Source: Eledone cirrhosa
Taxonomy: Eukaryota
NCBI GenBank assembly: GCA_964016885.1
Contig: OZ024759.1
Coordinates: forward strand, 15,252,001-15,316,000
Direction: 5' to 3'
DNA length: 64,000 nucleotides
Shown piece by piece: positions 15,982 to 34,961 of this stretch. Under the pieces are notes generated by a model. That model saw nothing but the letters and a program-made list of their open reading frames with translations, was not told where the DNA came from and ran no database searches. The translations under genes and the position numbers were made by a program. Every line of letters begins with the position of its first letter. Within the stretch, counting starts at the first letter, position 1.

Positions 15982-18405
15982 TAGAGTGTGCCATAAAAGG
16001 CAAGGTCACAATACTAATGCTCCATGTGTATTTTCCCATTATAAATGCCCAATTGGTAAAATAAAACATATTTTGTAGAAAATAATTTATTTTGAGCCTT
16101 ACCTATATCATGGTGATTATAGTGGAAAGTGTGATTTTGTTGCATGAAATCCTGAAAATGTGAAACCAGATATGACTATACAATAATTTTTTATTTTATT
16201 AATCCATTATATTTATTAAACCAGCTTTAAATATAAAGGCGTACAAGGAAGAAACAAGTTCAGTTAAGTTAACTCCAGTCCTATTTTTTTCAGAGTTTCA
16301 TTTTTGAAATCCGGACCTTGCGATGATGATCTTCGACTACTTGATGAACACACGCTTCTTCTCCTCATTCTTGGTGATGGCAACAAAATCAGTTATCAAC
16401 TTGACTGCTCTCTCTGCCAGATCGTTGCCTACCTTGATATTGTGAACAACAACACCTGCATTTTGATATGACGCTTGTGATGACCAAGTTGCAGGTGACA
16501 GCTCAAGCCAAGTATCGTCGAGACCAAGGAGATCGAACAGAAGCCTTGATTTCTTCCCAACGAGATGAGGCAGGTTCGTGGACGACTTCAAAACAGCGCT
16601 AGCAGAATGACTTCCTCTGTCAGGTACCAAACATGCCTGCTCAGAGCAGTAGTGGCTGCCTGCGAGAGATCTCTGTCAACCTTACTGTACTGTGTCAATT
16701 CCACGTAGAATTGAAGGTCATTGGATGGTGCATCAGCACACTTGACTGCTGTCAGCCAGTATCGCACATAAAACAGAGCATTGAACATACAGATCCGGCG
16801 CAACTTTTCCATTTTAGCTTGATCGTAATTGAGTCGCTCACCAAATGCATACATCTTTGCACTATAGATGATTGTGGACATCCACCGAGTGTTATGATGT
16901 GCACCAGGCAGCATCCAATGAATTTCACGAGGAGGGGGTGACACCAAGCAAGCTCAACATCACCTCGGCATATTCTCGGTTGTCGTCCCGTGGAAGAGAA
17001 CTCATTTTCCCATCGTCGGATGTCAGCAAGTATTGGAGGAACTTGATGTTCTCAGAACACAGACGCTTGAGTCTCCGGTCGACAATGTTCAATGTTGGTC
17101 TTGTCCGTGAGTGACACCCAATCTGTTTTGAACTCCTTGAACTCTGGGGTAGCTGGACTGGACATTGCTCCGAATAGTTGTTGCCACACTGCACACAAGA
17201 TACGCTCCATGACATGGTGCCGACAAGCAAAATAAAACACCTTTTTGTTGAGCATCTCTTCTAGATTCACGCAGGCACCATCTTTCCATCCAGTAGTCGC
17301 AGCAGTTGTGTCGAAGACCAAGTCCACCACAAACCCATCAACATTCCAATCTTTAACAAGATCAAATGATGCTTTGGCTTGAGTGGTTCCAGTGCCATCA
17401 GTAATTATGGGAACACTGAGGAGTTTATCTTCTCTGAAGTCCGGAGTTCCAGCAACTAGCACACCTAGCCTCTTGTGGTCACCAGGAATTATTTTGCCAT
17501 CCCAATGCAAGGTATCAAAGTCTGGTACAGCAAATTATTCCTTTATGTGTTGAGCCCCCACAGTTCTGATCTTCTTAGCTGCACGTCTGCTACTATTCTT
17601 GGAGCGAGTTGTGGCGTCTATGTCACCCACCCTCAGAAATAATCGATGCCATAAATGCTGTTCTCTGGCCCAGTGTCAGGTTTAAACGATCAGCCATTAG
17701 AGACATGTTTGAACTTTGAAATGAATTCTTTGGGAGTTCCAGTTGGATTTTTCGTTTCTTGTCTGACTTTCAGCTGTCTCGGGGTGGGTTTGACGCCTGA
17801 AATTCAGGATCCTGTTCATCTTCAGTTTCATCAATGGTTGAACTTGAATCATCAGTTCATTACGTGGAAGTAGTGCTGCTACAGATCCTGTCAAACGCTT
17901 TCTATGGTTCTCTGACTTTCGACGAACCACAGAAACCTGATCACGCTTAAACTTTGAAGATACCTTTTTCTGGTAACCCTTGTCTTCAGCACCCAGAGAT
18001 ACCTTTTTTCTGGCAAGGCAGGGCTTCGAGAAATGTAGCATCTTCCATTTTCTGTTCATAACGAAGATGGTCTTTCAAAATTTTCTTTTCAGCATCAATA
18101 TGTGCAATGTAGAAATACGAATCCAATTCAGAAATAAATAGTGCTTCCTTTTGTTTGTTTGACTTAAAACCTTTGTTTTTTTTGTAAATTTCTGTATTGA
18201 CTGTACATGTTCATAATTTTCAGTTTCACTTTGTCTTTTCGTTGAGTCGCCACATCAGCTTTTTCCCACTGACTAACTACTTCCATCACAAGCCTATCCG
18301 CAATAGCACCATTGAAGCTCACATGCTTTTCGTGTTCCATAGAACCATCTTTCAGGTAGAAAAAATATCTTAGAACATCCCTCTTTGTTGGGATTTTGTT
18401 TGGTG
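15982..18405 (-). mobile_element. Degenerate DDE transposase relic, hAT superfamily (hATm-like), one terminus retained
   Basis: Minus-strand fragments [60 protein letters not shown]. Terminus TAGAGTGTGCC at 15982. Subfamily call is from recalled motifs. Confidence 0.75.
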
Positions 18406-18414
18406 AAAAGGATA

Positions 18415-18920
18415 TAATATATATATATATGTACATATATATATATGTATATATATGTATATGTATAAATATGTATATGTATATATGTATATGTATAAGT
18501 TTATATATGTATATGTATATATATATATGTATATATATGTGTATATGTATATATATGTATATATATGTATATATATGTATATATGTGTATATGTATATAT
18601 GTGTATATGTGTGTATATGTATATATATGTATATATATGTATATGTATATATATGTATATGTATATATATATATGTATATGTATATATGTATATATATGT
18701 ATATGTATATATATGTATATATATGTATATGTATATATATGTATATGTATATATATGTATATGTATATGTATATAAATATATATCTAGGTATGTACTTAT
18801 ATGTGTGTGTATGTATATATATGTGTATATATATATCTATGTATGTATATATATATATGTGTGTATGTATATATCATCTTCCTTGAAATATATACACTCA
18901 TATACATGTGTGTATATATT
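18415..18920. repeat. (TATG/TA)n microsatellite replacing the transposase 5' end
   Basis: Direct reading. Confidence 0.95.
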
Positions 18921-19093
18921 TTTATCTCCATAATAATTGTTCTGTATATATGTACAAAATACTATTAGATTCTAAATTAATTTAAATATAGAAACGGAAT
19001 GTGCTATAACGCACAAAATATATTTTGAGACGTGTTTCGTCCCTTTCCGTTTCTATATATTTTTTTTTAGATGCATACAATTTTACCGCTAAT

Positions 19094-19240
19094 GCGGTTC
19101 GGACTTCGTCGTCTACTTAATTATGGCGTGACCATTCTATGTGTCTGAAGTTCGAATCGTTACGAGGTCTTCGTGGCTTATGCAGCTGGGATTATTTGCA
19201 GGCTGGCTACTTGCTGGCCTGCGTCCCGGACCTCGCGAAC
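19094..19240 (+). ncRNA. Putative structured small RNA, copy A (5' part and promoter deleted)
   Basis: Stems ggttcggacttcg/tgaagttcgaatc, cgaggtc/gacctcg, tgggat/gtcccg and gcaggctggc/gctggcctgc. Irregular pairs are G-U on the + strand. Contains GTTCGAATC. Confidence 0.5.
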
Positions 19241-21295
19241 AATCATACACATACATTTTATTAGATAGACAGTTTATGTCAATAAACGTCACATGCATTT
19301 TGGATATTGTGTTCATGTGAAGAGGCTTTTTATGTGGCTTTCTGGCACATCTTAATATTAACCAGAATCTTTTGGATCTCTCATCTTTGATCATAGTCAA
19401 TATTATACCCGTCTAGTTTTGAACGAATTTTTTTTTTTTTTTCATATCATCAGCGTAATCAAAGATTAACTGTTGGTCAGTATTAACTAGATCGATATCA
19501 TTTTAACCTACGTAGCATAGAAGCATTTAGATTCTTCTTACGAAACTTCATTTACTTTTTTTGTTCGTTTTCAACACTTCATTTCCATTCTTAGTTTCAT
19601 TCTTTAGAAACTTGATTTACATTAAACTTCATTTACATTCTTAGTTTAGTTACACCCCTCGATGTAGGAAAGGTTTTCTTGTTTCCTCTATTTAAATCTA
19701 TATATAATAAAAGATAAAATAGAAAGAATTTAATATTCTTTTTATTGATAACGTATGTAAAGGACTTTCATTTCCTTTTACTGATGTCCAGCCTTCAAGG
19801 TCATATGCTGTGTTGTTTGTCGTAACACGTGGGAATGGCGAAGTTTCTGTTAATAAAAAAAGGTTACATTTTATATACAAATCCTGTTCAGTTTATTTTG
19901 ACAAAAATCAATAAAGTAGAGTTTTACCAATTGCCTCAAAAGGTAGATGGCATACGTAGTACTTTTACCTGTCACAAATCCAAACTGTAGAGGTATGTAA
20001 TGTTTTCTTTGCTCTATACACATACATGTTATTAGATACACACATTATGTCAACAACTCTCACACTTTGGATCTTGTGTTTATGTGGCTTTCTGAAACAT
20101 CATCTTCACCCACTCATTTCTTTGAAATTAAAAAATAATACACATACAAACAGTGTTACCCCTTCTAAGAAACTTAACTAAACCCTCTCGACACTATATA
20201 CATACTTTCTAACTCAAATTTCTCTCTATAAACCTCATTCTGTAGATCTTTCTTTAGAGACATACATATAAAACTATATACTCTCAACTAAGAAAAATAT
20301 ATAAAACTTCTCTATACCTTTCCTTTTTTCTTTTAATAAACCTCTATACACAGCTACATTTTATTATCTTCTCTATTTCTTTCACACGTGTCCTCTTGTA
20401 TATAGAGAGAAACCTTTGTGAGAATCGAACTCTCGATTGTAAACTTTACATAAATACTTTACGCATTGATGTCCTATTTTTTCGGCGCATGCGTACTTTA
20501 GTGAAAAATAAATGGCCGCATGAAGAACTTCATGTTTTACAACGTGAATTAAAAAAACGTTAAAAACTTGGATTTTACTAATTTTACGGAGGTAAAGTGA
20601 AGCTTTATTTTATGTTGATCAATTTTATTGAAACATTTTCTGTTTATTTCCCTCCATAATGTCAGAAATAATTATTTAAACATTAGTTTTGTTTAGCCAC
20701 ATCTTACATTCTAATGTAATACAACACCCTCCTCATACATATTTCTTGCTCATACGAAATAGTGTATTTTGTTAATTATTATTTAAGCTTGTAAATAATA
20801 TATTTCTATTTCCCTTCATGATATCCTCGTCTTTTGTAATCAGCGGTTAACTGTTGATCTGTGTAAACTAGATCGATATCGCTTTAACCTTTAACCTACA
20901 ATCATTTATATGCTTAGTTTCTTTCGTTAGAAACTTTATTTACATTTTTACTTTCTTTTTTTCAACACTTCATCTACATTCTTATTTTCCCACCAACAAT
21001 ATTATGTAGACGATAGTTTTGTTTAAGCTAGTGCCACATTTGTAAGTCATATGAAATAGAATTTAGCTTATTTTTTTAATTATTTAAATAATATATTTCT
21101 AGTTCCCTTCATGATATGCTCGTGTTTTTTTGTAAATTAGTTTTGCAGGACTTGTTCCTTCTCACACATGATGTTGGTTGCTATATTCTGGTTATTAATA
21201 TCAACCAGAATCTTTTGAGATCTGTCGTCTTTTCGAAATATATTTTGAGATGTGTTTCTTCCCTTTCCGTTTCTATATATTTTACCTATAAGTAT

Positions 21296-21441
21296 CGGTT
21301 CGGACTTCGTCGTCTATTTATGTATGGCGTGATCATTCTACGTGTCTGAAGTTCGAATCGTTACGAGGCCTTCGTGGCTTATGCAGCTGGGACTATTTGC
21401 AGGCTGGCTACTTGCTGCCCAGCGTCCCGGACCTCGCGAAC
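21296..21441 (+). ncRNA. Putative structured small RNA, copy B
   Basis: Near-identical to copy A. TATAAGTA directly abuts it, implying deletion of the 5' segment seen in copy C. Confidence 0.5.
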
Positions 21442-24409
21442 AATCATATACATACATTTTATTAGATAGACAGTTTATGTCAATAAACGTCACATGCATT
21501 TTGGATATTGTGTTCATGTGAAGAGGCTTTTTATGTGGCTTTCTGGCACATCTTAATATTAACCAGAATCTTTTGGATCTCTCATCTTTGATGTTGGTCA
21601 GTATTAACTAGATCGATATCATTTTAACCTACGTAGCATAGAACCATTTAGATTCTTTTTCCGAAACTTCATTTACTTTTTTTGTTCGTTTTCAACACTT
21701 CATTTCCATTCTTAGTTTCATTCTTTAGAAACTTGATTTACATTAAACTTCATTTACATTCTTAGTTTAGTTACACCCCTCGATGTAGGAAAGGTTTTCT
21801 TGTTTCCTCTATTTAAATCTATATATAATAAAAGATAAAATAGAAAGAATTTAATATTCTTTTTATTGATAACGTATGTAAAGGACTTTCATTTCCTTTT
21901 ACTGATGTCCAGCCTTCAAGGTCATATGCTGTGTTGTTTGTCGTAACACGTGGGAATGGCGAAGTTTCTGTTAATAAAAAAAGGTTACATTTATATACAA
22001 ATCCTGTTCAGTTTATTTTGACAAAAATCAATAAAGTAGAATTTTACCAATTGCCTCAAAAGGTAGATGGCATACGTAGTACTTTTACCTGTCACAAATC
22101 CAAACTGTAGAGGTATGTAATGTTTTCTTTGCTCTATACACATACATGTTATTAGATACACACATTATGTCAACAACTCTCACACTTTGGATCTTGTGTT
22201 TATGTGGCTTTCTGGCACATCATCTTCACCCACTCATTTCTTTGAAATTAAAAAATAATACACATACAAATAGTGTTACCCCTTCTAAGAAACTTAACTA
22301 AACCCTCTCGACACTATATACATACTTTCTAACTCAAATTTCTCTCTATAAACCTCATTCTGTAGATCTTTCTTTAGAGACATACATATAAAACTATATA
22401 CTCTCAATTTAGAAAAACATATAAAACTTCTTCTCTATACCTTTCCTTTTTTCTTCTAATAAACCTCTAACCACAGCTACATTTTATTATGGTCTCTATT
22501 TCTTTCACACGTGTCCTCTTGTATGTAGAGAGAAACCTTTGTGTGAATCGAACTCTCGATTGTAAAGTCCGACAACTTTACATAAATACTTTGCGCATTG
22601 ATGTCCTATTTTTTCGGCGCATGCGTACTTTAGTGAAAATTAAATGGCCGCATGAAGAACTTCATGTTTTACAACGTGAATTAAAAAAACGTTAAAAACT
22701 TGGATTTTACTAATTTTACGGAGGTAAAGTGAAGCTTTATTTTATGTTGGTCAGTTTTATTGAAACATTTTCTGTTTATTTCCCTCCATAAGGTCAGAAA
22801 TAATTATTTAAACATTAGTTTTGTTTAGCCACATCTTACATTCTAATGTAATGCAGCACCCCCCTCATACATATTTCTTGCTCATACGAAATAGTGTATT
22901 TTGTTAATTATTATTTAAGCTTGTAAATAATATATTTCCCCTCATGATATCCTCGTATTTTGTAATCAGCGGTTAACTGTTGATCTGTGTAAACTAGATC
23001 GATATCGCTTTAACTTTTAACCTACAATCATTTTTCATATTTTGTTTCTTTTTTTCAACGCTTCATCTATATTCTTATTTTCCCACCAACAATATTATTT
23101 AGACGATAGTTTTGTTTAAGCTACTGCAACATTTCTAGGTCATATGAAATAGAATTTAGCTTATTTTCTTTATTATTTAAATAATATATTTCTAGCTCCC
23201 GTCATGATATCCTCCTGTTTTGTTGTAAAATAGTTTTGGAGGACTTGCTCCTGTCACACATGATGTTGGTTGCTACATTCTGGTTATTAATATCAACCAG
23301 AATCTTTTGAGATATGTCGTCTTTAGTCAAGGTGAATATTACACCCGTCTCGTTTTGACCATAAAACTTAAATTTTGTACCCATTTCTTTTTTAGATATC
23401 ATGATCGTAATCAAAGATTAACTGTTGGTCAGTGTTAACTAGATCGATATCACTTTAACCTACATAACATAGAACCATTTCCATTCTTAATTTCTTCTCA
23501 CGAAACTTTATTTACTTTCTTTGTTCCTTTTCAACACTTAATTTACATTCTTAGTTTCTTTTTTCGTCATTGAAAACACCTAAGACTGTAGATGAAATTT
23601 GTAAAGAAAGAAACCTAGTTGTGTTTTTTTTTAGACATCATCATCGTAATCAGATCGATACCGCTTTCACTTTTAATCTACGTAACAAGTAACCATTTAC
23701 ATTCCGCTTTATGCACTTCATGTACATTCTTAGTTTCTTTCTTTATACACTTCATCTACATTCGTATTTTCTTTCTTTAAGAAACCTCATATACATTCTT
23801 AGTTTCCTCTATTTAAATGTTTTTATAATAAAACCAAAATTGGATGAATTTTATAAAGTTTAACATTCCTTTTATTGACAACGTCTGTAAATGACTTTTA
23901 TTTCTTTTACAGATGTCCAGTCATCGAGGTCATATGTTGTATTGTTTGCCGTAACAAGTAGGAATGTCGTAGTTTCTGTTAATAAAGAAAGTTTACATAT
24001 TGCCATTTTCAGTTGCGTCATATGTACTATCAGTGTGTCAACTGCTCTCTCCACACTTCTGATCTTCTCTATCAGAGCTGACGTGCTCTCTCTCCTTCTC
24101 TCTACTCGGCATATATACATACACATATTTATCTGTATATATGTACAAAAACCCCATCTTCACAACACCACCAATGCGTTAATAATTGTCTTATGTATAT
24201 ATATATATATATATACATACACACCCACACATATGTGTACATATATTTATCTCTATAATTGTTCTGTATATATGTACAAAATAATTGTAGATTCTAAATT
24301 AATTTGAATATAGAAACGGAATGTGAGATAACACACGAAATATATTTTGAGACGTGTTATCTCCCTTTCCGTTTCTATATTTTTTTAAAAAAATGAATAA
24401 AATTTTACC

Positions 24410-24417
24410 TATAAGTA
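24410..24417 (+). promoter_or_regulatory. TATA-like box of putative Pol III RNA copy C
   Basis: TATAAGTA starts 33 nt upstream of GGC at 24443; same spacing as at 27265/27232 on the minus strand. Confidence 0.5.
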
Positions 24418-24440
24418 TACTAATTTTACTTAGTAGAATT

Positions 24441-24607
24441 GTGGCTTTGCATGGTGATGCGCGTAGCGGTTCCGACTTTGTCGTCTACTTATGTATGGCG
24501 TGACTATTCTATGTGTCTGAAGTTCGAATCGTTACGAGGTCTTCGTGGCTTATGCAGCTGCGACTATTTCGCACTGCGTCCCGGACCTCGCGAACAATCG
24601 ATTTTTT
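24441..24607 (+). ncRNA. Putative Pol III structured small RNA, copy C (~165 nt)
   Basis: TATA upstream, AGTAGAATTG-TGGCTTT start context, B-box GTTCGAATC at 24522-24530, T6 run at 24602-24607. Same fold as copies A and B with a shortened inner hairpin. Confidence 0.55.
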
Positions 24608-25186
24608 GCTCAAAGTTTTATTAGAATTATCTCCCTTTTTTTAAACTCTTCTTTTTTTGAAGTTACTTTCGGTTATTTGGATGAAAACCATTTTGGATAT
24701 TACTTTCATGTAGAGAGGTATGTAATATTTTCTTTGCTCTATACTAGGACTAATATGTACACTTTATGTCAATAACGGATATATTAAGACTAATATATAC
24801 ACTTTATGTCAATATAGAATTTGTCTCAACATCACCAATTTCATATAGCTTTTTTTTCGACTTTTCAGAAAACATACATTTCAATAGATACATACTTTGG
24901 ATATTGTGTTCAAGTTTTATTTTCTGTGGCTTTCTTTGAAATTTCAAACGAAATACACACACAAATAGTGTTACCCCTTCTTAGAAACTAAATTAAGCCA
25001 TCTCGACACTGTATACATGCTTTCGAAGAAATATTCACCCAATGAATCTTGATTTCTCTTGACTTAGTTTCTTTGATACTTACTTTTATATTCTTAGTTT
25101 CTTTCGTTAGAAACTTCATTTACAATTTTCGTTTCTTTTTTCACCACTCTTAATTTCCATCCAACAATATTATTTCTAGTTCCCTA

Positions 25187-25368
25187 GGGCGGTGGATTGT
25201 CAGAGGGTCGGACGCCATGCTTTCCAGCATAGTTACGTCCCTTTACGATCTGAGTTCAAATCCCGCCGAGGTTGACTTTGCCTTTCATCATTACGGGGCC
25301 GATAAAATAAAGTACCAGTAATGCACTGGATAATTTGCTGGCCTTGTGGCTAAAGTAGAAACAATTAT
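25187..25368 (+). mobile_element. Full-length tRNA-derived SINE (partial second copy at 25430-25525)
   Basis: GGCGGTGGATTGTCAGA head, B box GAGTTCAAATCCC, central gactttgcctttcatc...gataaaataaagtaccag, tail agaaacaattatt. Repeated across the window. Confidence 0.85.
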
Positions 25369-25822
25369 TTCTAGTTCCCTTCAAGATATCCTCGTGTATT
25401 GTTGTAAATTCTGGTTATTATTAATAACGAACTGAGTTCAAATCCCACCGAGGTTGACAAAATCAAGTACCAGTAATACACTGGGTAATTGCTGGCCTTG
25501 TGCCTAAAGTAGAAACAATTATTAATAACCTTTTGAGATCTGCCGTCTCTGTATATATAATTTAAAAAAAGACAAAATTGGAAGAATCTTATAAAGTTTA
25601 ATATTCTTTTTATTGATAACGTATTTTCTTTTCTTTTACAGATGTCTCCAGCCTCCAAGGTCATACGCTGTGTTGCCGTAAAAATCGCGAACTTTCTGTT
25701 AACAAAGTTTACATATATACGAATCGTGTTCAGTTTATTTTGACAAAAATAAATAAAGTTTTCATATTATATACGAATTGTGTTCAATTTATTTTGATAA
25801 AAAAAAAAAAATTTTAAACAGC

Positions 25823-26560
25823 CTCATCAAGGTTTCGAATCCAACAGTGCCTCCAAAAATAGACGGAATCGCCAATGGTGCCAATCTAAGGAAAAAGAAT
25901 GGAAAATATCAATGAAGTGAAAAAGAAAAGAAAATTAGAGAAAGAACCATCAAGGGTTCGAATGTAACCGTCGTCCAAAATAGTAAGTAACATAAAGGGT
26001 AAAAAAGTAAGTATCAATAAAAGTGAACAATATAAAAAGTGTCATTAAGGGTTCGAATCCAACAGTCGTCCAAGAATGTAATAAGAACCTTAATGTAAAG
26101 AAAGTATCAAAGGTTCGAATCTAAGTAAGTCAAAAATGTAGTAAGAAGTATCAAGGGTAAGAATGTAATAAGAACCTTGAACTATGTAAAGAAAGTATCA
26201 AAGGTTCGAATCTCAGTCAAGAATGTAGTAACAAGTATCAAGGGTTAGAATGTAGTAAGAACCTTGAACCATGTAAAGAAAGTATCAAAGGTTCGAATCT
26301 CAGTCAAGAATGTAGTAACAAGTATCAAGGGTTAGAATATAATAATAACATTGAAGTATGTAAAGAAAGTATCAAAGGTTCGAATCTAAGTCAAGAATGT
26401 AGTAAGAATTATCAAGGGTTAGAATCTAAGAATCTGAGTTTAGATTCTAAGATTAGATTCTAAGTTTAGAATCTTAGATTCTAAGTTTAGAATCTAAGAT
26501 TCTAAGTTTAGAATCTAAGATTCTAAGTTAAAAAGGTTCGAATCTAACTGTCTTCAAAGA
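25823..26560 (+). repeat. Array of 8 GGTTCGAAT(C)-containing units (87-bp period in 26203-26377) ending in AGAATCTAAG/CTTAGATTCT micro-palindromes
   Basis: Motif at about 25831, 25955, 26050, 26112, 26203, 26290, 26377 and 26535. Confidence 0.9.
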
Positions 26561-26629
26561 ATGTTAATGACCTCCAAGGGTTTTAAGAATCTAGAAACTT
26601 CAAAAATATCATATTAGAAGAAATTTCTA

Positions 26630-26893
26630 ATATGCAAATTAGAAATTATATTAAAAGAAATTTCTTCTAATATAATTTCCAAATTAGCATATTAGATATG
26701 CAAATTAGAAATTATATTAAAAGAAATTTCTTCTAATATAATTTCCAAATTAGCATATTAGATATGCAAATTAGAAATTATATTAAAATAAATTTCTTCT
26801 AATATAATTTCCAAATTAGCATATTAGATATGCAAATTAGAAATTATATTAAAAGAAATTTCTTCTAATATAATTTCCAAATTAGCATATTAG
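26630..26893. repeat. 4 x 66-bp tandem repeat, each unit an imperfect palindrome carrying ATGCAAAT
   Basis: Unit atatgcaaattagaaattatattaaaagaaatttcttctaatataatttccaaattagcatattag at 26630, 26696, 26762 and 26828. Confidence 0.95.
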
Positions 26894-26918
26894 ATTTTCG
26901 AAATTAGCATATTAGATT

Positions 26919-27030
26919 AAATCTTCGACAAGTCTCACTATATATATATATATATATGTCGACATATATATATATATATACTATGTCGACATAGTAAATA
27001 TATATATATATATTTACTATGTCGAAGATT
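26919..27030. repeat. Nested palindromes centred on GTCGAC and (TA)n
   Basis: (at)n-gtcgac-(at)n; ctatgtcgacatag; tcgacatagtaaat..atttactatgtcga; outer aaatcttcgaca/tgtcgaagattt. Confidence 0.9.
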
Positions 27031-27077
27031 TTTTTCTTCTTTTTTTTTTTATCTAATTTGCATATTTAAAAAATTTC

Positions 27078-27234
27078 AAAAAAAAGGCTTCACGGTGGTC
27101 AGGGACGGGCCTTGCATCTATGTGCCGGCCCAGAATAGTCCCAGGCCGATGCAGTCGCACGCCACCACGAATAGAACGCCAGCCAGGGAGACTGGTAGTC
27201 CGAGACGCAGTTCGCACGCCACCGCGAAGGCCGC
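27078..27234 (-). ncRNA. Putative Pol III structured small RNA, copy D (~150 nt, diverged paralog)
   Basis: Minus strand: TATAAGTA (27265-27258), AGTAGAATTG-CGGCCTTC start, terminal stem cttcgcggtgg/ccaccgtgaag (with a G-U), core TGGGACTATT-hairpin-GTCCCTGACC, then T8. Confidence 0.6.
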
Positions 27235-27250
27235 AATTCTACTGAGTTAG

Positions 27251-28007
27251 ATAGTGGTACTTATACGTACTTTTGAAAGATTTTGTTGAAAAAAAAATTA
27301 ATATATGCAAACGGAACAAAGGGAAGTAATTTTGGATTTAAATATTTTTTTCATAAGACAATTATTAACGCATTGGTGGTGCTATGAAGATGGGGTTTTC
27401 GATGTCTGCCAACGGAGAGTTTAGGGAGTTTAATTGTGATGGTTTATCGAAGTTCGATGGTGACCGTCTTCTACAATTGTGGATCCTGTGTTGACTGCAA
27501 AATCTTACGATGGAGACGCAAATTAGACATGTCTCTAAATCTTTGTTTACAGTCAAGCGATAACCATAGATGATTATACAGGTTAGACAACCATAAGTGC
27601 ACCCCATAACAACACACACATTGCATTGCTGGTCATATGTGTGTGTTGTTATGGGGTGCACTTATGGTTGTCTAACCTGTATAATCATCTATGGTTATCG
27701 CTTGACTGTAAACAAAGATTTAGAGACATGTCTAATTTGCGTCTACATCGTAAGATTTTGCAGTCAACACAGGATCCACAATTGTAGAAGACGGTCACCA
27801 TCGAACTTCGATAAACCACCACAATTAAACTCCCTAAACACTCCGTTGGCAGACATCGAAAACCCCATCTTCATAGCACCACCAATCCGTTAATAATTGT
27901 CTTATGAAAAAAATATTTAAATCCAAAATTACATCCCTTTGTTCCGTTTGCATATATTAATTTTTTTTTCAACAAAATCTTTCAAAAGTATCTATAAGTA
28001 CCACTAT
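27251..28007. repeat. Near-perfect inverted repeat: 371-bp arms (27251-27621 and 27637-28007) with a 15-nt spacer
   Basis: Arms are reverse complements with only a handful of substitutions; they produce the mirror ORFs 27365-27661(-) and 27597-27893(+). Confidence 0.97.
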
Positions 28008-28243
28008 GCCGTTTACATATATCATTTTAGAAACGAATATTTAAAAAGATCGATACAAATGTGATAAATACGTACCTTGATGGATTCCAGGTTTAAGGAC
28101 ACATGATCCCAGTTCTGGGGGATGTTAAAATACAGGTCAACCTTTTATAAGCTGCCTTAGATGTAGACGGTAAGGAGGGACTGTATATCAGGAACACATC
28201 CTTACATGTAATCGTGGGCCGTATGGAGGTACAGCTACCATAA

Positions 28244-28800
28244 TCTATATATATAAAACTGAGGATGTCTGTCTGAGTTCGAATCCCTAAAGCTCGAGAA
28301 CTACCGAACCGACTGTTTTCAAACTTTACACATGTAATACTTATGTTTCAGGGAGTGTTCTGAGCAAAAACAATTTCAAATGTCCAAGGGACCCTATTAG
28401 CCTATTCTTTTCAAACTTTACATATGTATTACTTATGTTTCAGGGTGTGTTATGCACATAAAAATATTTAACTTTTTTTTATCTTTAGATGAAAAACTGC
28501 GTTTTTTAAGATATTTAGTGGTTTTTTAGGCGTTACGTCAGACCGATTTCCTTGAAATTGTAACTATGTATTAGTCAGTCTCTGCTTCATACCGTAAGCA
28601 AAGAAAATTCAACTTTCTTATGGGCCCGCATTAGATGAAAAACTTCATTTTTTCAGCTTCTTAGGGCTTTTAGGAGGCGTTACGTCTAGCCGATTATCCC
28701 GAAATTTTAAGGCATATTACGCACATGAAACAATTCATTTTCTTGATCTTCTAGGGCCCGCATTAGGTGAAAACCTGAATCTTTCCTGCTTCATCGAGGA
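28244..28800 (+). mobile_element. Helitron-like non-autonomous element, 5' part
   Basis: A|TCTATATATATAAAACTGAGGATGTCTGTCTG start typical of Helitron 5' ends, with internal subrepeats. No CTRR 3' end seen. Confidence 0.55.
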
Positions 28801-29069
28801 AAATCTTACACCCATGATACTACTGGGGGGGGGCAGCTACCACAGTATACTGTATAACAGGGACCTTAAAAGACAGACCCAAACTTATATTACATTTTTT
28901 ATTACGTTTAACTGTGGTTCTTATGGAGGCAGAGCTACCATAATATGCTGTAAATAAGGGACGTTTAAAGGACAAAACACAACATTAGATGTAACAGTAT
29001 ATCACGTTAAAAGGCAGGCCCAGCTCTCTAGACTGTAAGTAAACTTACAGCCTACACCGATATCACCAT

Positions 29070-29420
29070 TGGCAGGGCTGAACTAAACAGTCCTTCATAT
29101 CAGCTGCCTGGGGTGCATCTTCACATCAGATACCAACATTGAGAGGAAAATCCGCAACAGACTGGCAAAGGTGACCATTTGATTTGATAGACTGTACTAA
29201 CGTGTGAAAGATTAAACATGAAACTGGACAGTAAGAAGTTGTATAGGAGAAAGGTTCGTAGGTTTCTAGTCGAGGTGGGCTGCAGAGAATCATCGGCTTA
29301 ATCAGTATGGAGGATGCTCACAATCATTGGAATGACAGGACGAGAGAAGAAGGCTGCAGTTCGCAGGAAGAGGGAGGCAACAGCAAAGGCTTTGGAGAAG
29401 GAGATATGGGATTGAGGGTA
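29070..29420 (+). mobile_element. Old RTE-like LINE fragments (duplicated at about 31890-32240)
   Basis: LGCIFTSDTNIERKIRNRLAK resembles the RTE YLGS..S.D..I..RI.KA block; the downstream ..SVWRMLT resembles an RTE C-terminus. Confidence 0.55.
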
Positions 29421-30939
29421 AAAATTACCAAATAAACGAAGGGCGCGGACATCAACACCAAGCCTATGTCCATCGAAGGTGAATGAACCTGAGGACATAA
29501 TTAAATCCTATATATCATCAACAACGTTTAACGTCTATCTTCCACGCTAGCACTACTAAATTTCCCTCATGGGTCAACTGAAGTTTATGATGACCCTTGC
29601 TCGAGATGTCACTCTCCCACCTAATGATTGAGAATTCACGTGAGGAAAGTTAATCGATATCGATCTATCAACACTGATCAATACTTCAACCATGATTACC
29701 AGAAAAACAGACGTACACTGTTCTTGGACTATTAAAGGTGAAAACAAAACTTAGGTGTATAGAACTAAATTTACGACATTACAAGACGGAAGATAAGATT
29801 CCCCTATCCACAAAGTCAAATGGGAGGAAAATGGTTTAAAACATAGATGGTGAACAGCTGGACTTATTGTGTGTAACTCGGAAAGATTGCAAGATGTAGG
29901 CAACAATCGAAACGACGACGTTCGATTGATAATTGGAAGTGAGTTTGAATACGTAAACAAGAGAACAACTAGGAAGGTGTAAATACTATATCATACGAAA
30001 GAGGGAAAGATTTACAAAGATACCTCAACATAATATAACAATCTACGTTACCTTTCGGAAAGCAGCAATTGTCCATTGTTAAACCATTTAGCAAGAGTTT
30101 TTGTAAAGCTTGTAAAATTCTACAAACTAACGGCCATTTCTTTTTCCTTGTTTTGAATGCGCAAGCGCGAGATTTAAAAATCCAGTGCGCATGTTCCAAT
30201 TATACTGACCAAGCTGCAGCACCTTCTAAGATCCTGGGCCATGCTACAGCACCTTCTAAGATGCCTGGCCATGCTACAGCACTAGTTAATCTATAATTAC
30301 ATACGTAATTCTCAGGGAAATTCAGTATTATAAGACTGGCCATTGTGAATTACAGATGACACGCAGTTTCTGTTTACCCAGTTTCACATGGGGTGTGACC
30401 GAATCTGGGACTTAAATAAACCCACAAGTTAGTCGATATCGATATTTACAAACACTGATCGACAGTTAACCATTGATTAACAGACAGCGGAAGAAAGTGA
30501 TCGAAAAACTGAAATGAATTTACAATTGTTTTAGTTTTACGTATGATTCAAGAACACCAGCAATAAGTGTGTGTGTGGGGGGGGGGTTAACCCTGTGATG
30601 GACTGACGTTCAGGGGGGAGTCTTGTACTCTTGTACTCTCAGTCACTTTAGGGGATAAGCTTTTCACGACAGACCAGAGAATCTAGGGAAATCTTGATTG
30701 TATGCCCCTAAGACTCTAGTATAATGCTTCATATACCGAGAAATGAAAACATTTTCAATATATAAACGCTTTATTCGATTTTAATATAAATCAATCAAAT
30801 TTATTAAGTTCTTTTCCCCAAAGGATGTCCGGAGCCAACACGCTATCGCACCTCTCCTCTCTACACAAACTTTGGGGATTCAAGACAATCGCTGACTAAC
30901 TAACAATATTAAATTGTGATTACATATTCTAACAAACCT

Positions 30940-31090
30940 GTCCATGCTGCAGCACCATCTAAACAGCCATGCTACAGTAGCTTCTAACAAAGCTGGCCAT
31001 GCTACACCACCAACTGAACAGCCTGGCCATGCTTCATCACTATCTGAACAGCCTGGCCATGCTAAAGCGCCATCTAAAAAGCCAGGCGCT
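30940..31090 (+). repeat. 30-bp minisatellite (also 30210-30285, 33320-33395, 34048-34197)
   Basis: catgctacagcaccatctgaacagcctggc-like units; translate as HAT(A/P)PS(K/E)QPG. Confidence 0.85.
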
Positions 31091-34000
31091 ATTACTGAGT
31101 GCATTTTTATCAGGACACCAGAACTAATGAGGTTGTCATGTCTTTGATACAGTAGGAGAGTCCTCCTGGCCCTTTATTTGGAGGGATGCCCTTACGAAAA
31201 CCACTTTACTGAGTTTACTAAGTGATACAAACACTAGGGTCGTTGTCATGTATTTGGTACAGTTGGAGGGTCCTCCTTGTTTCTACTTTGGCTCAAGGGA
31301 CATTAGATGCGTGGAAGGACAGAATAATGTATATCAGTGACGTTAAAAGACAGGCCCATCATTAGATGTAACTGTGGACGGTAAGGAGGGCCAGCTACCA
31401 CAATATACTGGAAGACAAACACAACCTTACATATAACAGCTGCCGTGTTATAAGAATATGGTAAGAGACTTCCCCTGGATAGGACGCCGGTCGATCGCAA
31501 GATTAAAGTCTGTCTCAAATTCGGAGGCTCATTAGACCGGTGTTTATCCGAGTCAGTTAGTCGGCTGAAAATACAGGTACCTCACCTGGACAGAACGCCA
31601 GTCTATAACAGAGTTACACCCATGATACTACTGGGGGGGGGGGGGGCAGCTACCACAGTATACTGTATAACAGGGACCTTAAAAACAGACCCAAACTTAT
31701 ATTACATTTTTTATTACGTTTAACTGTTTTCTTATGGAGGGAGAGCTACCACAATATGCTGTAAATAAGGGACGTTTAAAGGACAAACACAACATTAGAT
31801 GTAACAGTATATCACGTTAAAAGGCAGGCACAGCTCTCTAGACTGTAAGTAAACTTAAAGAAGATGGAGGTATTCCACCAGCCTACACTCCATAACACCA
31901 TTGGCGAGACTGAACTAAACAGTCCATCATATCAGCTGCCTGGGGTGCATCTTCACATCAGATACCAACATTGAGAGGGAAATCCGCAACAGACTGGCAA
32001 AGGTGACCAGTAAATTTGATAGACTGTACTAACGTGTGAAAGATTAAACATGAAGCTGGACAGTAAGAAGTTGTATAGGAGAAAGGTTCGTAGGTTTCTA
32101 GTCGAGGTGGGCTGCAGAGAATCATCGGCTTAATCAGTATGGAGGATGCTCACAATCATTGGAATGACAGGACGAGAGAAGAAGGCTGCAGTCCGCAGGA
32201 AGAGGGAGGCAACAGAAAAGGCTTTGGAGAAGGAGAGATGGGATTGAGGGTAAACATTCCCAATGAACGAAGGGCGCGGACATCAACACCAAGCCTATGT
32301 CCATCGAAGGTGAATGAACCTGAGGACATAATTAAATCCTATATATCATCATCAACGTTTAACGTCTATCTGCCACGCTAGCATGGATTAGATGAGTCTG
32401 TCCCATTTAGAGGCAAGTTCGGTGGGGTGACCGCTCATATATATATATTGCAGCATATATATAAACTTACTTGGCATATTGCAATCGTATCAATATCGAT
32501 CATCTCAGGGTACAATCATAATTATGGACTTACGTAACATATGTGTGTGGGAGTGGCGAGTGGATAACTGCAATCCTTAAAACACCCGACAAAACCTCTC
32601 CAGAATACAAGACTGACTCAATTAAATGTACAGGCTTCCAGAATAGATGCTGTCTACTAAATTTCCCTCATGGGTCAACTAAAGTTTATGATGGCTCTTG
32701 CCCGAGATGTCACTCTCTCACCTAATGATTGAGAATTCACGTGAGGAAAGTTAATCGATATCGATCTATCAACACTGATCAATACTTCAACCATGATTAC
32801 CAGAAAAAACAGACGTACACTGTTCTTGGACTATTAAAGGTGAACACAAAACTTAGGTGTATAGAACTAAATTTACGACATTACAAGACGGAAGATAAGA
32901 TTCCCCTATCCACAAAGTCAAATGGGAGGAAAATGGTTTAAAACATAGATGGTGAACAACTGGATTTATTGTGTGTAACTCGGAAAGATCGCAAGATGTA
33001 GGCAACAATCGAAACGACGACGTTCGATTGCTAATTGGAAGTGAGTTTCAATACGTAAACAAGAGAACAACTAGGAAGGTGTAAATACTATATCATACGA
33101 AAGAGACTAAGAGGGAAAGATTTACAAAATTACCTCAACATAATATAACAATCTACGTTACCTTTCGGAAAGCAGCAATTGTCCATTGTTAAACCATTTA
33201 GCAAGAGTTTTTGTAAAGCTTGTAAAATTCTACAAACTAACGGCCATTTCTTTTTCCTTGTTTTGAATGCGCAAGCGCGAGATTTAAAAATCCAGTGCGC
33301 ATGTTCCAATTATACTGACCAAGCTGCAGCACCTTCTAAGATCCTGGGCCATGCTACAGCACCTTCTAAGATGCCTGGCCATGCTACAGCACTAGTTAAT
33401 CTATAATTACATACGTAATTCTCAGGGAAATTCAGTATTATAAGACTGGCCATTGGGAATTACAGATGACACGCAGTTTCTGTTTACCCAGTTTCACATG
33501 GGGTGTGACCGAATCTGGGACTTAAATAAACCCACAAGTTAGTCGATATCGATCTTTACAAACACTGATCAACAGTTAACCATTGATTAACAGACAGCGG
33601 AAGAAAGTGATCGAAAAACTGAAATGAATTTACAATTGTTTTAGTTTTACGTATGATTCAAGAACACCAGCAATAAGTGTGTGGGGGGGGGGGTTAACCC
33701 TGTGATGGACGGACGTTCAGGGGGGAGTCTTGTACTCTTGTACTCTCAGTCACTTTAGGGGATAAGCTTTTCACGACAGACCAGAGAATCTAGGGAAATC
33801 TTGATTGTATGCCCCTAAGACTCTAGTATAATGCTTCATATACCGAGAAATGAAAACATTTTCAATATATAAACGCTTTATTCGATTTTAATATAAATCA
33901 ATCAAATTTATTAAGTTCTTTTCCCCAAAGGATGTCCGGAGCCAACACGCTATCGCACCTCTCCTCTCTACACAAACTTTGGGGATTCAAGACAATCGCT

Positions 34001-34961
34001 GACTAACTAACAATATTAAATTGTGATTACATATTCTAACAAACCTGTCCATGCTGCAGCACCATCTAAACAGCCATGCTACAGTAGCTTCTAACAAAGC
34101 TGGCCATGCTACACCACCAACTGAACAGCCTGGCCATGCTACAGCACTATCTGAACAGCCTGGCCATGCTAAAGCACCATCTAAACAGCCAGGCGCTATT
34201 ACTGAGTGCATTTTTATCAGGACACTAGAACTAATGAGGTTTTCATGTCTTTGATACAGCAGGAGAGTCCTCCTGACCCTTTATTTGGAGGGATGCCCTT
34301 ACGAAAACCACTTTACTGAGTTTAGTGATACAAGTGATACAAACACTAGGGTCGTTGTCGTGTATTTGGTACAGTTGGAGGGTCCTCCTTGTTTCTACTT
34401 TGGCTCAAGGGAAAGTCAATTAAATCGACCCCAGTGCATTACTGTATGTTTACCTGGCTTGTTCACTGGGGTTAGCCCCTCTAGGTGAGTTGTCTACCCC
34501 TTCTTCCAGTTATACTCAGCTGAAAATGAGCACCAGCAGTAGATGGGGATTTAACCCTGTGATAGACTGGCGTACACTCAGTCACTTTACGGGATAAGCT
34601 TCTGGGCTCACGACAGACCAGAGAGCCTATCGCTGACTCACTAACAATATTACATTGTATTTAACACTGCTGAAGAATTGAATGAACAATTTTCGGTCTT
34701 TGATCTCAATCTTGAAAGAAAGATTTGCTAAAGACACCTGAGCTGTTACAGGGAAAACTAGGAACATTTTTGAAACAAAATACACTAAACATATTTCCTG
34801 TGAATAAAATAGAAACATGTTGAATTTTATTATTAAATCTCAACCATTATTGCATTACTGTTTTCCCGCTTGCACACCACCAGCGTTCTTCCAATCCAAT
34901 CTTTGATGTCATCATTCAAGTATATTCTTAGTCTTCCAATCAACTACACACTACCATATAT

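What the first reader, a model, noticed from the sequence alone, without database searches (positions are those of the whole stretch)
18930..34412. ~15 kb quasi-symmetric block with diverged inverted arms around a palindrome and tandem-repeat core
Seen: the block is nearly free of microsatellites and carries only small nested TE pieces. Motifs left of about 26.5 kb recur inverted on the right. The TAACTGTTG(G/A)TCAGT..AACTAGATCGATATC motif is + at 19468, 20848, 21592, 22974 and 23420, and reversed at 29657, 30435, 32757 and 33545. A GCGCAT..AAATGGCCG..TTTTACAA module is + at about 20485 and 22615, reversed at about 30110-30195 and 33220-33305. 24150-24195 recurs reversed at 27351-27400. The structured RNA is + at 19-24 kb and - at 27.1 kb. 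Each arm is itself tandemly duplicated (2.2 kb and 2.5-2.8 kb units). Known: hairpin or concatemer junctions flanked by short tandem repeats and duplicated small genes typify ends and origins of large linear DNA viruses and linear plasmids. Inference: relic terminus or origin of an unknown endogenous virus or giant mobile element, or a fold-back amplification product. No hallmark viral protein is visible.
Basis: partly seen in the sequence, partly recalled or inferred. Interest (0 to 1): 0.75.

Follow-up and report, generated by a model that had tools for sequence, protein, structure and literature searches.

The report
Self-folding repeats carrying unknown RNA gene
This stretch is one copy of a scattered, non-coding repeat family whose units often sit head-to-head as mirror images and likely carry an undescribed small-RNA gene; it shows no sign of being a virus end and likely spreads by DNA folding back on itself and being duplicated along a chromosome.

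Summary
The motifs, duplications and palindromes are real, but the halves are not one pair of inverted arms: only 567 of 7,740 left-arm bases match the right side inverted. The block is a head-on fusion of two diverged subtypes of one non-coding cassette. 15,910 of 15,981 bases recur at other loci; searches give 120-314 candidates per module, mostly on the smaller chromosomes, in chromosome-restricted subfamilies; 44 of 61 loci are head-on. Relatives on the same chromosome fold back at a GC-rich hairpin (17 places) that this copy lacks. The cassette holds a 150-185-nt foldable sequence laid out like this genome's U6 genes (TATA-like box at -30, upstream motif, T-run) with no Rfam match, plus promoter-like exons ending in conserved GT. 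No viral gene, fixed end or target duplication was found; 23 of 29 parvoviral NS1 matches were checked and share no module. Best reading: a core-duplicon-like low-copy repeat family with a candidate Pol III RNA gene. Expression is untested. The scan had noted other fold-backs in this genome, but not this family.

The parts
18864..34844 (.). Whole block: one rearranged member of a dispersed non-coding cassette family; L-type units (+) fused head-on with R-type units (-)
18864..25816 (+). L-type array: upstream module, SRa, promoter-like exon pL, hairpin motif, terminal-exon-like module; direct duplication 19471-21232/21592-23324
19094..19244 (+). SRa copy 1, 5'-truncated (lacks the TATA spacer and first stem strand)
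21292..21445 (+). SRa copy 2, 5'-truncated
24411..24607 (+). SRa copy 3 with TATA-like box at 24411, predicted start G at 24441, T-run 24602-24607; short deletion in the 3' stem
20451..20640 (+). pL promoter-like first exon (GCGCATGCG, AAATGG, GT donor-like site at 20592); second copy 22583-22772
23841..24000 (+). Terminal-exon-like module (pyrimidine tract, CAG, AATAAA); further copies near 19779, 21900, 25637
23400..23475 (+). Small AT-rich hairpin plus AGATCGATATC motif; also 19448, 20836, 21592, 22962 (+) and 29656, 30435, 32757, 33545 (-)
25202..25523 (+). Two fragments of a high-copy SINE-like repeat inserted in the block (not family-specific)
26073..26429 (+). 87-bp tandem array, each unit with GGTTCGAATC (B-box-like; label recalled)
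26419..26529 (.). 21-bp palindromic tandem array
26630..26921 (.). 66-bp imperfect-palindrome array; each unit holds ATGCAAATTAG, the motif found at -76 to -78 of this genome's U6 genes
27078..27329 (-). SRc: candidate Pol III small-RNA gene; upstream motif about 27319-27329, reversed octamer-like motif at about -77, TATA-like box 27264, predicted start G 27234, T-run 27085-27078
27251..28007 (.). Fold-back palindrome, 96.8%, centre 27629; this form was seen only in the window among the loci compared; its tip is bridged by a short-read contig
28006..34844 (-). R-type array, duplicated as 28806-31300/31614-34412; holds 81-bp and 30-bp repeat seeds that form long arrays at other loci
30041..30200 (-). 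pR promoter-like first exon (GCGCAT, AAATGG, GT donor-like site near 30051); second copy 33151-33310

Best explanation
The block is one rearranged copy of a dispersed, non-coding low-copy repeat family whose units sit head-on at most loci; it likely carries an undescribed U6-type (Pol III) small-RNA gene inside a predicted spliced non-coding unit, and it likely spreads by strand fold-back followed by duplication along the same chromosome. Shown: the fixed module order, the multi-copy and chromosome-restricted distribution, the palindromes, the absence of a family ORF and of fixed ends in the loci examined, and the U6-like spacing of motifs. Inferred: that hairpins (the GC-rich centre in relatives, the palindromic 21- and 66-bp arrays and the 27629 tip here) are the sites where a broken or stalled strand folds back and copies one arm; that arms are re-homogenised by such copying or by conversion; that blocks with their TE cargo move as segmental duplications; that the window copy lost the GC hairpin and turned its left palindrome into a direct duplication; that SRa/SRc are transcribed. 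The quasi-symmetry arises because two old subtypes of one cassette meet head-on and only the motif-bearing parts still align.
For: 15,910 of 15,981 bases match at least one of 60 other loci. First-look candidates 258, 123, 120, 223, 314 for five module queries. Head-on arrangement in 44 of 61 loci. Nearest copy on the same chromosome for 24 of 35 SRa and 28 of 33 SRc copies, against about 6 in label shuffles, maxima 17 and 15. GC hairpin at 17 places, 16 on C20, centred on either of two loops with both loop orientations. Inner arms at least 95% alike within a locus in 11 of 14 palindromes, 83-90% on average to other loci. TE pieces lie symmetrically in both arms. Shared blocks end at varying places, often in microsatellites or TEs. 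Arm mismatches are G:T and A:C alike, as for DNA-level copying. ATAAG[TG]A lies at one fixed distance in 60 of 70 SR starts and at no other; U6 genes here have TATA at -30 and an octamer-like motif at -76 to -78; 19 of 21 SR copies with a reversed octamer-like motif have it at -76 to -79; a motif shared with U6 upstream DNA lies upstream of 48 of 68 SR copies against 54 of 4,006 unrelated windows; T-run in 59 of 68. SRc structure 98.6% paired, 3 pairs with two-sided change. GT kept in 14 of 14 and 16 of 16 distinct exon copies.
Against: No transcript was examined. Covariation in 20 SRa copies does not exceed shuffles (329 of 500 reach the paired fraction); the SRc result rests on 11 related sequences, where shuffles mislead. 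Between chromosomes the RNA-like part is better kept than its flank in SRa (0.79 vs 0.73) but not in SRc (0.73 vs 0.76). The shared upstream motif lies at about -90 in SR but -265 to -288 in U6, 47 of 68 copies lack the reversed octamer-like motif, and the 7SK gene lacks the exact motifs. The AG acceptor is no better kept than other dinucleotides. Within-locus arm identity beats the best other locus in only 3 of 14 cases, 5 ties. Many SR copies are truncated or deleted. Copies are related, so counts are not independent, and loci were picked as top hits. Hundreds of copies on many chromosomes may need an enzyme that was not found; ends may have eroded.
Confidence: 0.6

Rival explanations
1. A non-autonomous foldback DNA transposon family (Mutator- or P-like) whose long modular inverted arms captured a promoter, exons and a small-RNA gene, and whose true ends have eroded or lie outside the stretches compared.
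For: Long imperfect arms with internal tandem repeats, no coding capacity, many rearranged forms and seeding of satellite arrays match the foldback description in PMC4079207 (passages); many loci begin and end with the same upstream-plus-SR module; hundreds of candidates.
Against: No common terminus and no convincing target duplication at 21 arm ends, 83 upstream flanks or 23 junctions between near-identical copies; no linked transposase: the relic at 16.6-18.4 kb matches no other family locus and belongs to a separate family mostly on the largest chromosomes; spread is chromosome-restricted and carries flanking LINE pieces.
Confidence: 0.2
2. Relic termini, origins or defective genomes of a hairpin-ended DNA virus or linear replicon, integrated as concatemers.
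For: Relatives have a GC-rich hairpin centre with variable unit number and both loop orientations, flanked by short repeats; one locus is a head-to-head, tail-to-tail double palindrome; small Pol III RNAs are known from DNA viruses (recalled); the genome does hold parvoviral inserts.
Against: No viral ORF at 61 loci; only three weak module hits of 32-80 bp near 23 of 29 NS1 matches; one polB-2 match, on C2; four motifs absent from viral contigs and one from metagenome contigs (exact matches only); promoter motifs are those of host U6 genes; the window has no GC hairpin.
Confidence: 0.08
3. Composite rolling-circle (Helitron-like) elements that captured host promoter and exon fragments and grew internal tandem repeats.
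For: Modular capture and variable ends; a Helitron with a PIF1 piece lies in one locus and a Helitron 3' end in both arms of another.
Against: The Helitron is a nested insertion with its own ends between modules that are contiguous in the neighbouring copy; PIF1 hits 1 of 61 loci; no shared TC start or GC hairpin-CTRR end at family junctions; head-on palindromes dominate.
Confidence: 0.06
4. Products of an RNA intermediate (Penelope-like fold-backs or retrozymes).
For: Penelope-type RT pieces lie near some loci; other notes of the scan report such hairpins in this genome (not tested here).
Against: No hammerhead core in the block and no G:T excess between arms in 14 loci with arms; upstream promoter DNA and intron-like DNA travel with the units.
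Confidence: 0.04

Closest known systems
Human core-duplicon families (GOLGA8, NPIP, LRRC37; PMC6920530, passages seen)
   Same: Copies largely confined to single chromosomes, part tandem, part dispersed; mosaic blocks with acquired promoters and TE pieces; palindromic cores (GOLGA8).
   Different: No protein-coding core found; the conserved core is a candidate small-RNA gene and short non-coding exons; units are 4-30 kb; subfamilies on at least 13 contigs; invertebrate genome.
Foldback transposons (Tetris, Galileo, FB; PMC4079207, passages seen)
   Same: Long modular inverted arms with tandem repeats, non-coding, many rearranged forms, repeats that grow into satellite arrays.
   Different: No conserved outer ends, no 8-10-bp target duplication, no linked transposase found; arms of 2.5-7 kb carrying promoter-like modules.
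Type 3 Pol III genes (U6, 7SK of this genome)
   Same: TATA-like box at -30, G start, octamer-like motif at about -77 in the SRc subtype, a shared upstream motif, T-run end.
   Different: Sequence matches no Rfam family and neither U6 nor 7SK; octamer-like motif reversed; hundreds of diverged copies, many broken.
Hairpin termini of parvoviruses and poxviruses (recalled; not from a call)
   Same: GC-rich hairpin with two loop orientations at the centre of head-to-head junctions in relatives on C20.
   Different: No viral genes linked; no sequence shared with this genome's parvoviral inserts; absent from the window copy.

Membership tests
Endogenous DNA virus terminus or origin | Linked hallmark genes (polB, NS1/Rep, capsid, packaging ATPase) | tested here: not met
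   only polB-2 and NS1 were searched genome-wide, other hallmarks only through Pfam scans of ORFs at fetched loci
Endogenous DNA virus terminus or origin | Hairpin junction with two loop orientations | tested here: inconclusive
   Present in C20 relatives, absent from the window; fold-back repair would give the same
Endogenous DNA virus terminus or origin | Sequence match to a virus | tested here: not met
   Four exact-pattern scans of viral contigs empty; insensitive to diverged viruses
Foldback DNA transposon | Long modular inverted arms with internal tandem repeats, non-coding | tested here: met
Foldback DNA transposon | Conserved outer termini with 8-10-bp target duplication | tested here: not met
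   ends outside the fetched stretches cannot be excluded
Foldback DNA transposon | Cognate transposase sharing the termini | tested here: not met
Core-duplicon low-copy repeat | Copies confined largely to single chromosomes, tandem and dispersed | tested here: met
Core-duplicon low-copy repeat | Shared core inside mosaic blocks with variable ends and TE cargo | tested here: met
Core-duplicon low-copy repeat | Expressed protein-coding core gene | tested here: not met
   No family ORF; so it works like one but is not filed as a member
Core-duplicon low-copy repeat | Copy-number variation among individuals | not testable with these tools
   Only one sample was served
Type 3 Pol III small-RNA gene | TATA-like box at -30, G start, T-run terminator | tested here: met
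   the start is predicted from U6 spacing
Type 3 Pol III small-RNA gene | Upstream elements as in the host's U6 genes | tested here: inconclusive
   Motifs shared, but one reversed and only in 21 of 68 copies, the other at a different distance
Type 3 Pol III small-RNA gene | Conserved RNA structure with covariation | tested here: inconclusive
   no excess; excess, few related sequences
Type 3 Pol III small-RNA gene | Transcription by Pol III | not testable with these tools
   No transcript data examined
Known RNA families (Rfam 15) | Covariance-model match | tested here: not met
   no match over any SR copy; 7SK lies elsewhere
Helitron | TC start and hairpin-CTRR end at element junctions; Rep-helicase | tested here: not met
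Penelope-like fold-back or retrozyme | Hammerhead core; one-strand A-to-G marks | tested here: not met

The most novel reading that the evidence does not exclude
An octopod lineage has amplified an undescribed class of U6-type small RNA genes to hundreds of copies inside self-folding cassettes that act as their own duplication engine; convergent non-coding transcripts from the mirror arms, with trapped transposon pieces, would yield long double-stranded RNA, making the family a selfish or genome-defence system that evolves chromosome by chromosome.
Probability: 0.25. Interest if true: 0.85.

Novelty: new variant of a known kind. Interest (0 to 1): 0.55.

Why it matters
If SR is expressed, it adds a multi-copy Pol III RNA class unknown to Rfam in a lineage noted for RNA-level novelty, with a precise start, end and fold to test. 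The family would also be an invertebrate counterpart of core duplicons, whose confinement to single chromosomes is an open question (PMC6920530, discussion passage), with a visible fold-back site and dated arms. If not expressed, it is still a compact record of palindrome birth, arm homogenisation and satellite seeding, and a warning that hairpin-plus-repeat blocks need not be viral.

Tried and rejected
RNA evidence: no RNA holder listed; the three runs served are contigs of one sample, possibly the assembly's own source, so not independent; uncovered parts prove nothing and summed depth was not used as copy number. Rfam and ARAGORN: nothing but sub-threshold miRNA-like hits on palindromes. 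Coding repeats: long ORFs in 81-bp arrays and a Gly/Asp-rich frame in the GC hairpin were judged by-products, as sister arrays have 85-, 62-, 40- and 43-bp units; no protein search was run on them. C2H2 zinc-finger promoters: one stray linker motif in 1.1 Mb. The AGATCGATATC module as a Helitron end, snoRNA or micro-exon: geometry or invariance did not fit (by eye). The transposase relic left of the block as partner or as a marker of the insertion site: unrelated family, its 5' end is absent from the window. One search used a mis-typed structure and is void; one search replaces it. crashed; one search replaces it. PMC6128900 (mollusc piRNA clusters, passages) held nothing that bears on this; PMC7797068 seen as abstract only; PMC6431247 as passages. 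Literature searches (listings only) showed no description of this family; subscription papers, Repbase-type libraries and supplements were not seen, so it may be catalogued there as an unclassified repeat.
Full report
Setting. The window is G000:C20:15,252,001-15,316,000 in a 3.0-Gb animal assembly. Other notes of the scan call it octopus-like; I did not test that. Motif names below (octamer, B-box, TATA, hATm, CRE) are recalled labels, not tool results, unless a call is cited.

The observation. All listed motifs are at the stated places. The direct duplications, the 27251-28007 palindrome and the 24148-24195 inversion appear in a self-comparison, the 87-, 21- and 66-bp arrays. Microsatellites cover 0.5% of the block and 22% of the rest. 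But the halves are not collinear inverted arms: 567 of 7,740 left-arm bases have an inverted match on the right. The tip of the palindrome is bridged, without differences, by a 75-bp contig in each of three runs of one sample, so that tip is not an assembly artefact; the whole block was not spanned.

It is a family. Five module queries gave 258, 123, 120, 223 and 314 first-look candidates, 40 scored each. None of the 335 rows listed in these and lies on C1-C5, whereas 32 of 40 rows for the neighbouring transposon do; rows are top hits, so this is a bias in the closest copies, not a census. I fetched 60 other loci (1.26 Mb with the window). 15,910 of 15,981 block bases match at least one of them, 15,774 at least three. 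Modules keep their order: L-type runs upstream module, SRa, promoter-like exon pL, hairpin motif, terminal-exon-like module; R-type runs pR, 81-bp repeats, SRc. A model built from 11 SRc copies finds SRa copies at E 1e-11 to 3e-4 and nothing in U6, 7SK or parvoviral loci, so L and R are old subtypes of one cassette. In the window, and at four other C20 loci, they meet head-on at the 87/66-bp arrays. That explains the quasi-symmetry.

Palindromes and spread. 44 of 61 loci are head-on within 12 kb (some loci were chosen for a hairpin). On C20 the turn is a GC-rich hairpin of 75-bp units, found at 17 places, 16 on C20; it folds at z = -12 as DNA, varies in unit number, is centred on either of two loops and shows both loop orientations. 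The window lacks it and has a direct duplication where relatives have the palindrome. Elsewhere the turn is a 64-, 40- or 35-bp array. Inner arms are at least 95% alike within a locus in 11 of 14 cases and 83-90% alike on average to other loci, yet beat the best other locus in only 3 of 14: arms are homogenised within sub-lineages, then copied whole. LINE and Helitron pieces sit in both arms of some palindromes. Arm mismatches are G:T and A:C in equal measure. The nearest copy is on the same chromosome for 24 of 35 SRa and 28 of 33 SRc copies, against about 6 in shuffles. Shared blocks of 5-30 kb end at varying points, often in microsatellites or TEs; no common end or target duplication emerged.

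No coding partner. Of 284 ORFs of 130 aa or more, 159 overlap ordinary TE proteins; the rest form 105 clusters, 93 scanned and the others. Hits were TE domains, three host exons and two below cut-off; none viral. The genome has one polB-2 match, on C2, and 29 parvoviral NS1 matches; the stretches around 23 of them hold only three weak module hits of 32-80 bp and the common SINE. Four motifs are absent from viral contigs and one from metagenome contigs, by exact match. The transposase relic ending at 18422 is a separate family.

The RNA-like module. SRa and SRc are GC-rich, 150-185 nt, with a predicted terminal stem and two arms and no Rfam match. ATAAG[TG]A lies at one distance in 60 of 70 starts and at no other, though the spacer varies. 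This genome's U6 genes have TATA at -30, ATGC(A/T)AAT(T/G)AG at -76 to -78 and a TTAYYTCCCTT motif at -265 to -288 in three distinct promoters; one further copy is split by a SINE and one lacks both motifs (5 of 14 fetched loci measured, the rest are array copies). With the same spacing SR starts on G in 63 of 68 copies (partly set by the search anchor), 21 of 68 have a reversed octamer-like motif, 19 of them at -76 to -79, 48 of 68 have the second motif at -80 to -105 against 54 of 4,006 unrelated windows, and 59 of 68 have a T-run. Against: covariation is no higher than shuffles in 20 SRa copies, higher in 11 related SRc copies; conservation over flanks holds for SRa only; the 7SK promoter lacks the exact motifs; many copies are broken. 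SR is not 7SK, which lies on C2. I put expression of some copies at about even odds. The GT after pL and pR is kept in 14 of 14 and 16 of 16 distinct copies, AATAAA in 74% against 38% for other hexamers, the AG acceptor no better than average: a spliced non-coding unit is suggested, not shown.

Verdict. Most likely (0.6) a core-duplicon-like low-copy repeat family built around a candidate Pol III RNA gene, multiplied by fold-back and intrachromosomal duplication; the mechanism is inferred from structure. A foldback transposon with lost ends (0.2) is the main rival; a viral relic is unlikely (0.08). It resembles core duplicons (PMC6920530, passages) and foldback elements (PMC4079207, passages) but fails a defining test of each. 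Nine literature searches and five answered look-ups in the scan's notes found no description of this family. Interest 0.55.

Noticed in passing
G000, 29 places; L161-L180: Parvovirus-like endogenous inserts: NS1 matches, several beside a capsid-like frame with a phospholipase-like motif (label recalled), some tandem or in inverted duplications. Unrelated to the block. Observed only.
   Followed up: partly
G000:C19:31.78-31.84 Mb (L183-L193): Tandem array of about 30 U6 genes in 1.8-kb units, some with a SINE inserted between the TATA box and the upstream motif.
   Followed up: partly
L195 (G000:C2:194,684,573-194,684,851): Single 7SK gene above the Rfam cut-off, with a TATA box and a weaker octamer-like motif.
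   Followed up: partly
window 16614-18422: Truncated copy of a DNA transposon (hATm-like by recalled motifs, no Pfam hit) with 175 candidates at 92-96% identity, flanked by TA runs.
   Followed up: yes
L051:4617-6795: Internally deleted Helitron with a 391-aa PIF1 frame, nested in a family locus.
   Followed up: yes
8 of 61 family loci, e.g. L016:6936-7466, L051:8895-9999: Pieces of a CRE-like reverse transcriptase (label recalled) carried inside several blocks, in one case in both arms.
   Followed up: no
L022:7401-7796: The GC hairpin reads as a 131-aa Pro/Gly/Asp-rich open frame with strong triplet rhythm; it may come from a folded-back coding fragment.
   Followed up: no
L054, L062-L063, L034, L043: The 81/85-bp repeat present as a seed in the window has grown into arrays of 5 to more than 20 kb beside other copies.
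   Followed up: partly
window 40-48 kb: Penelope-type reverse transcriptase pieces and a 1.06-kb direct duplication 38634-39697/42787-43868.
   Followed up: no
L030:930-3032: 701-aa acidic open frame without Pfam match, 4 kb from a family copy on C21; probably a host exon.
   Followed up: no
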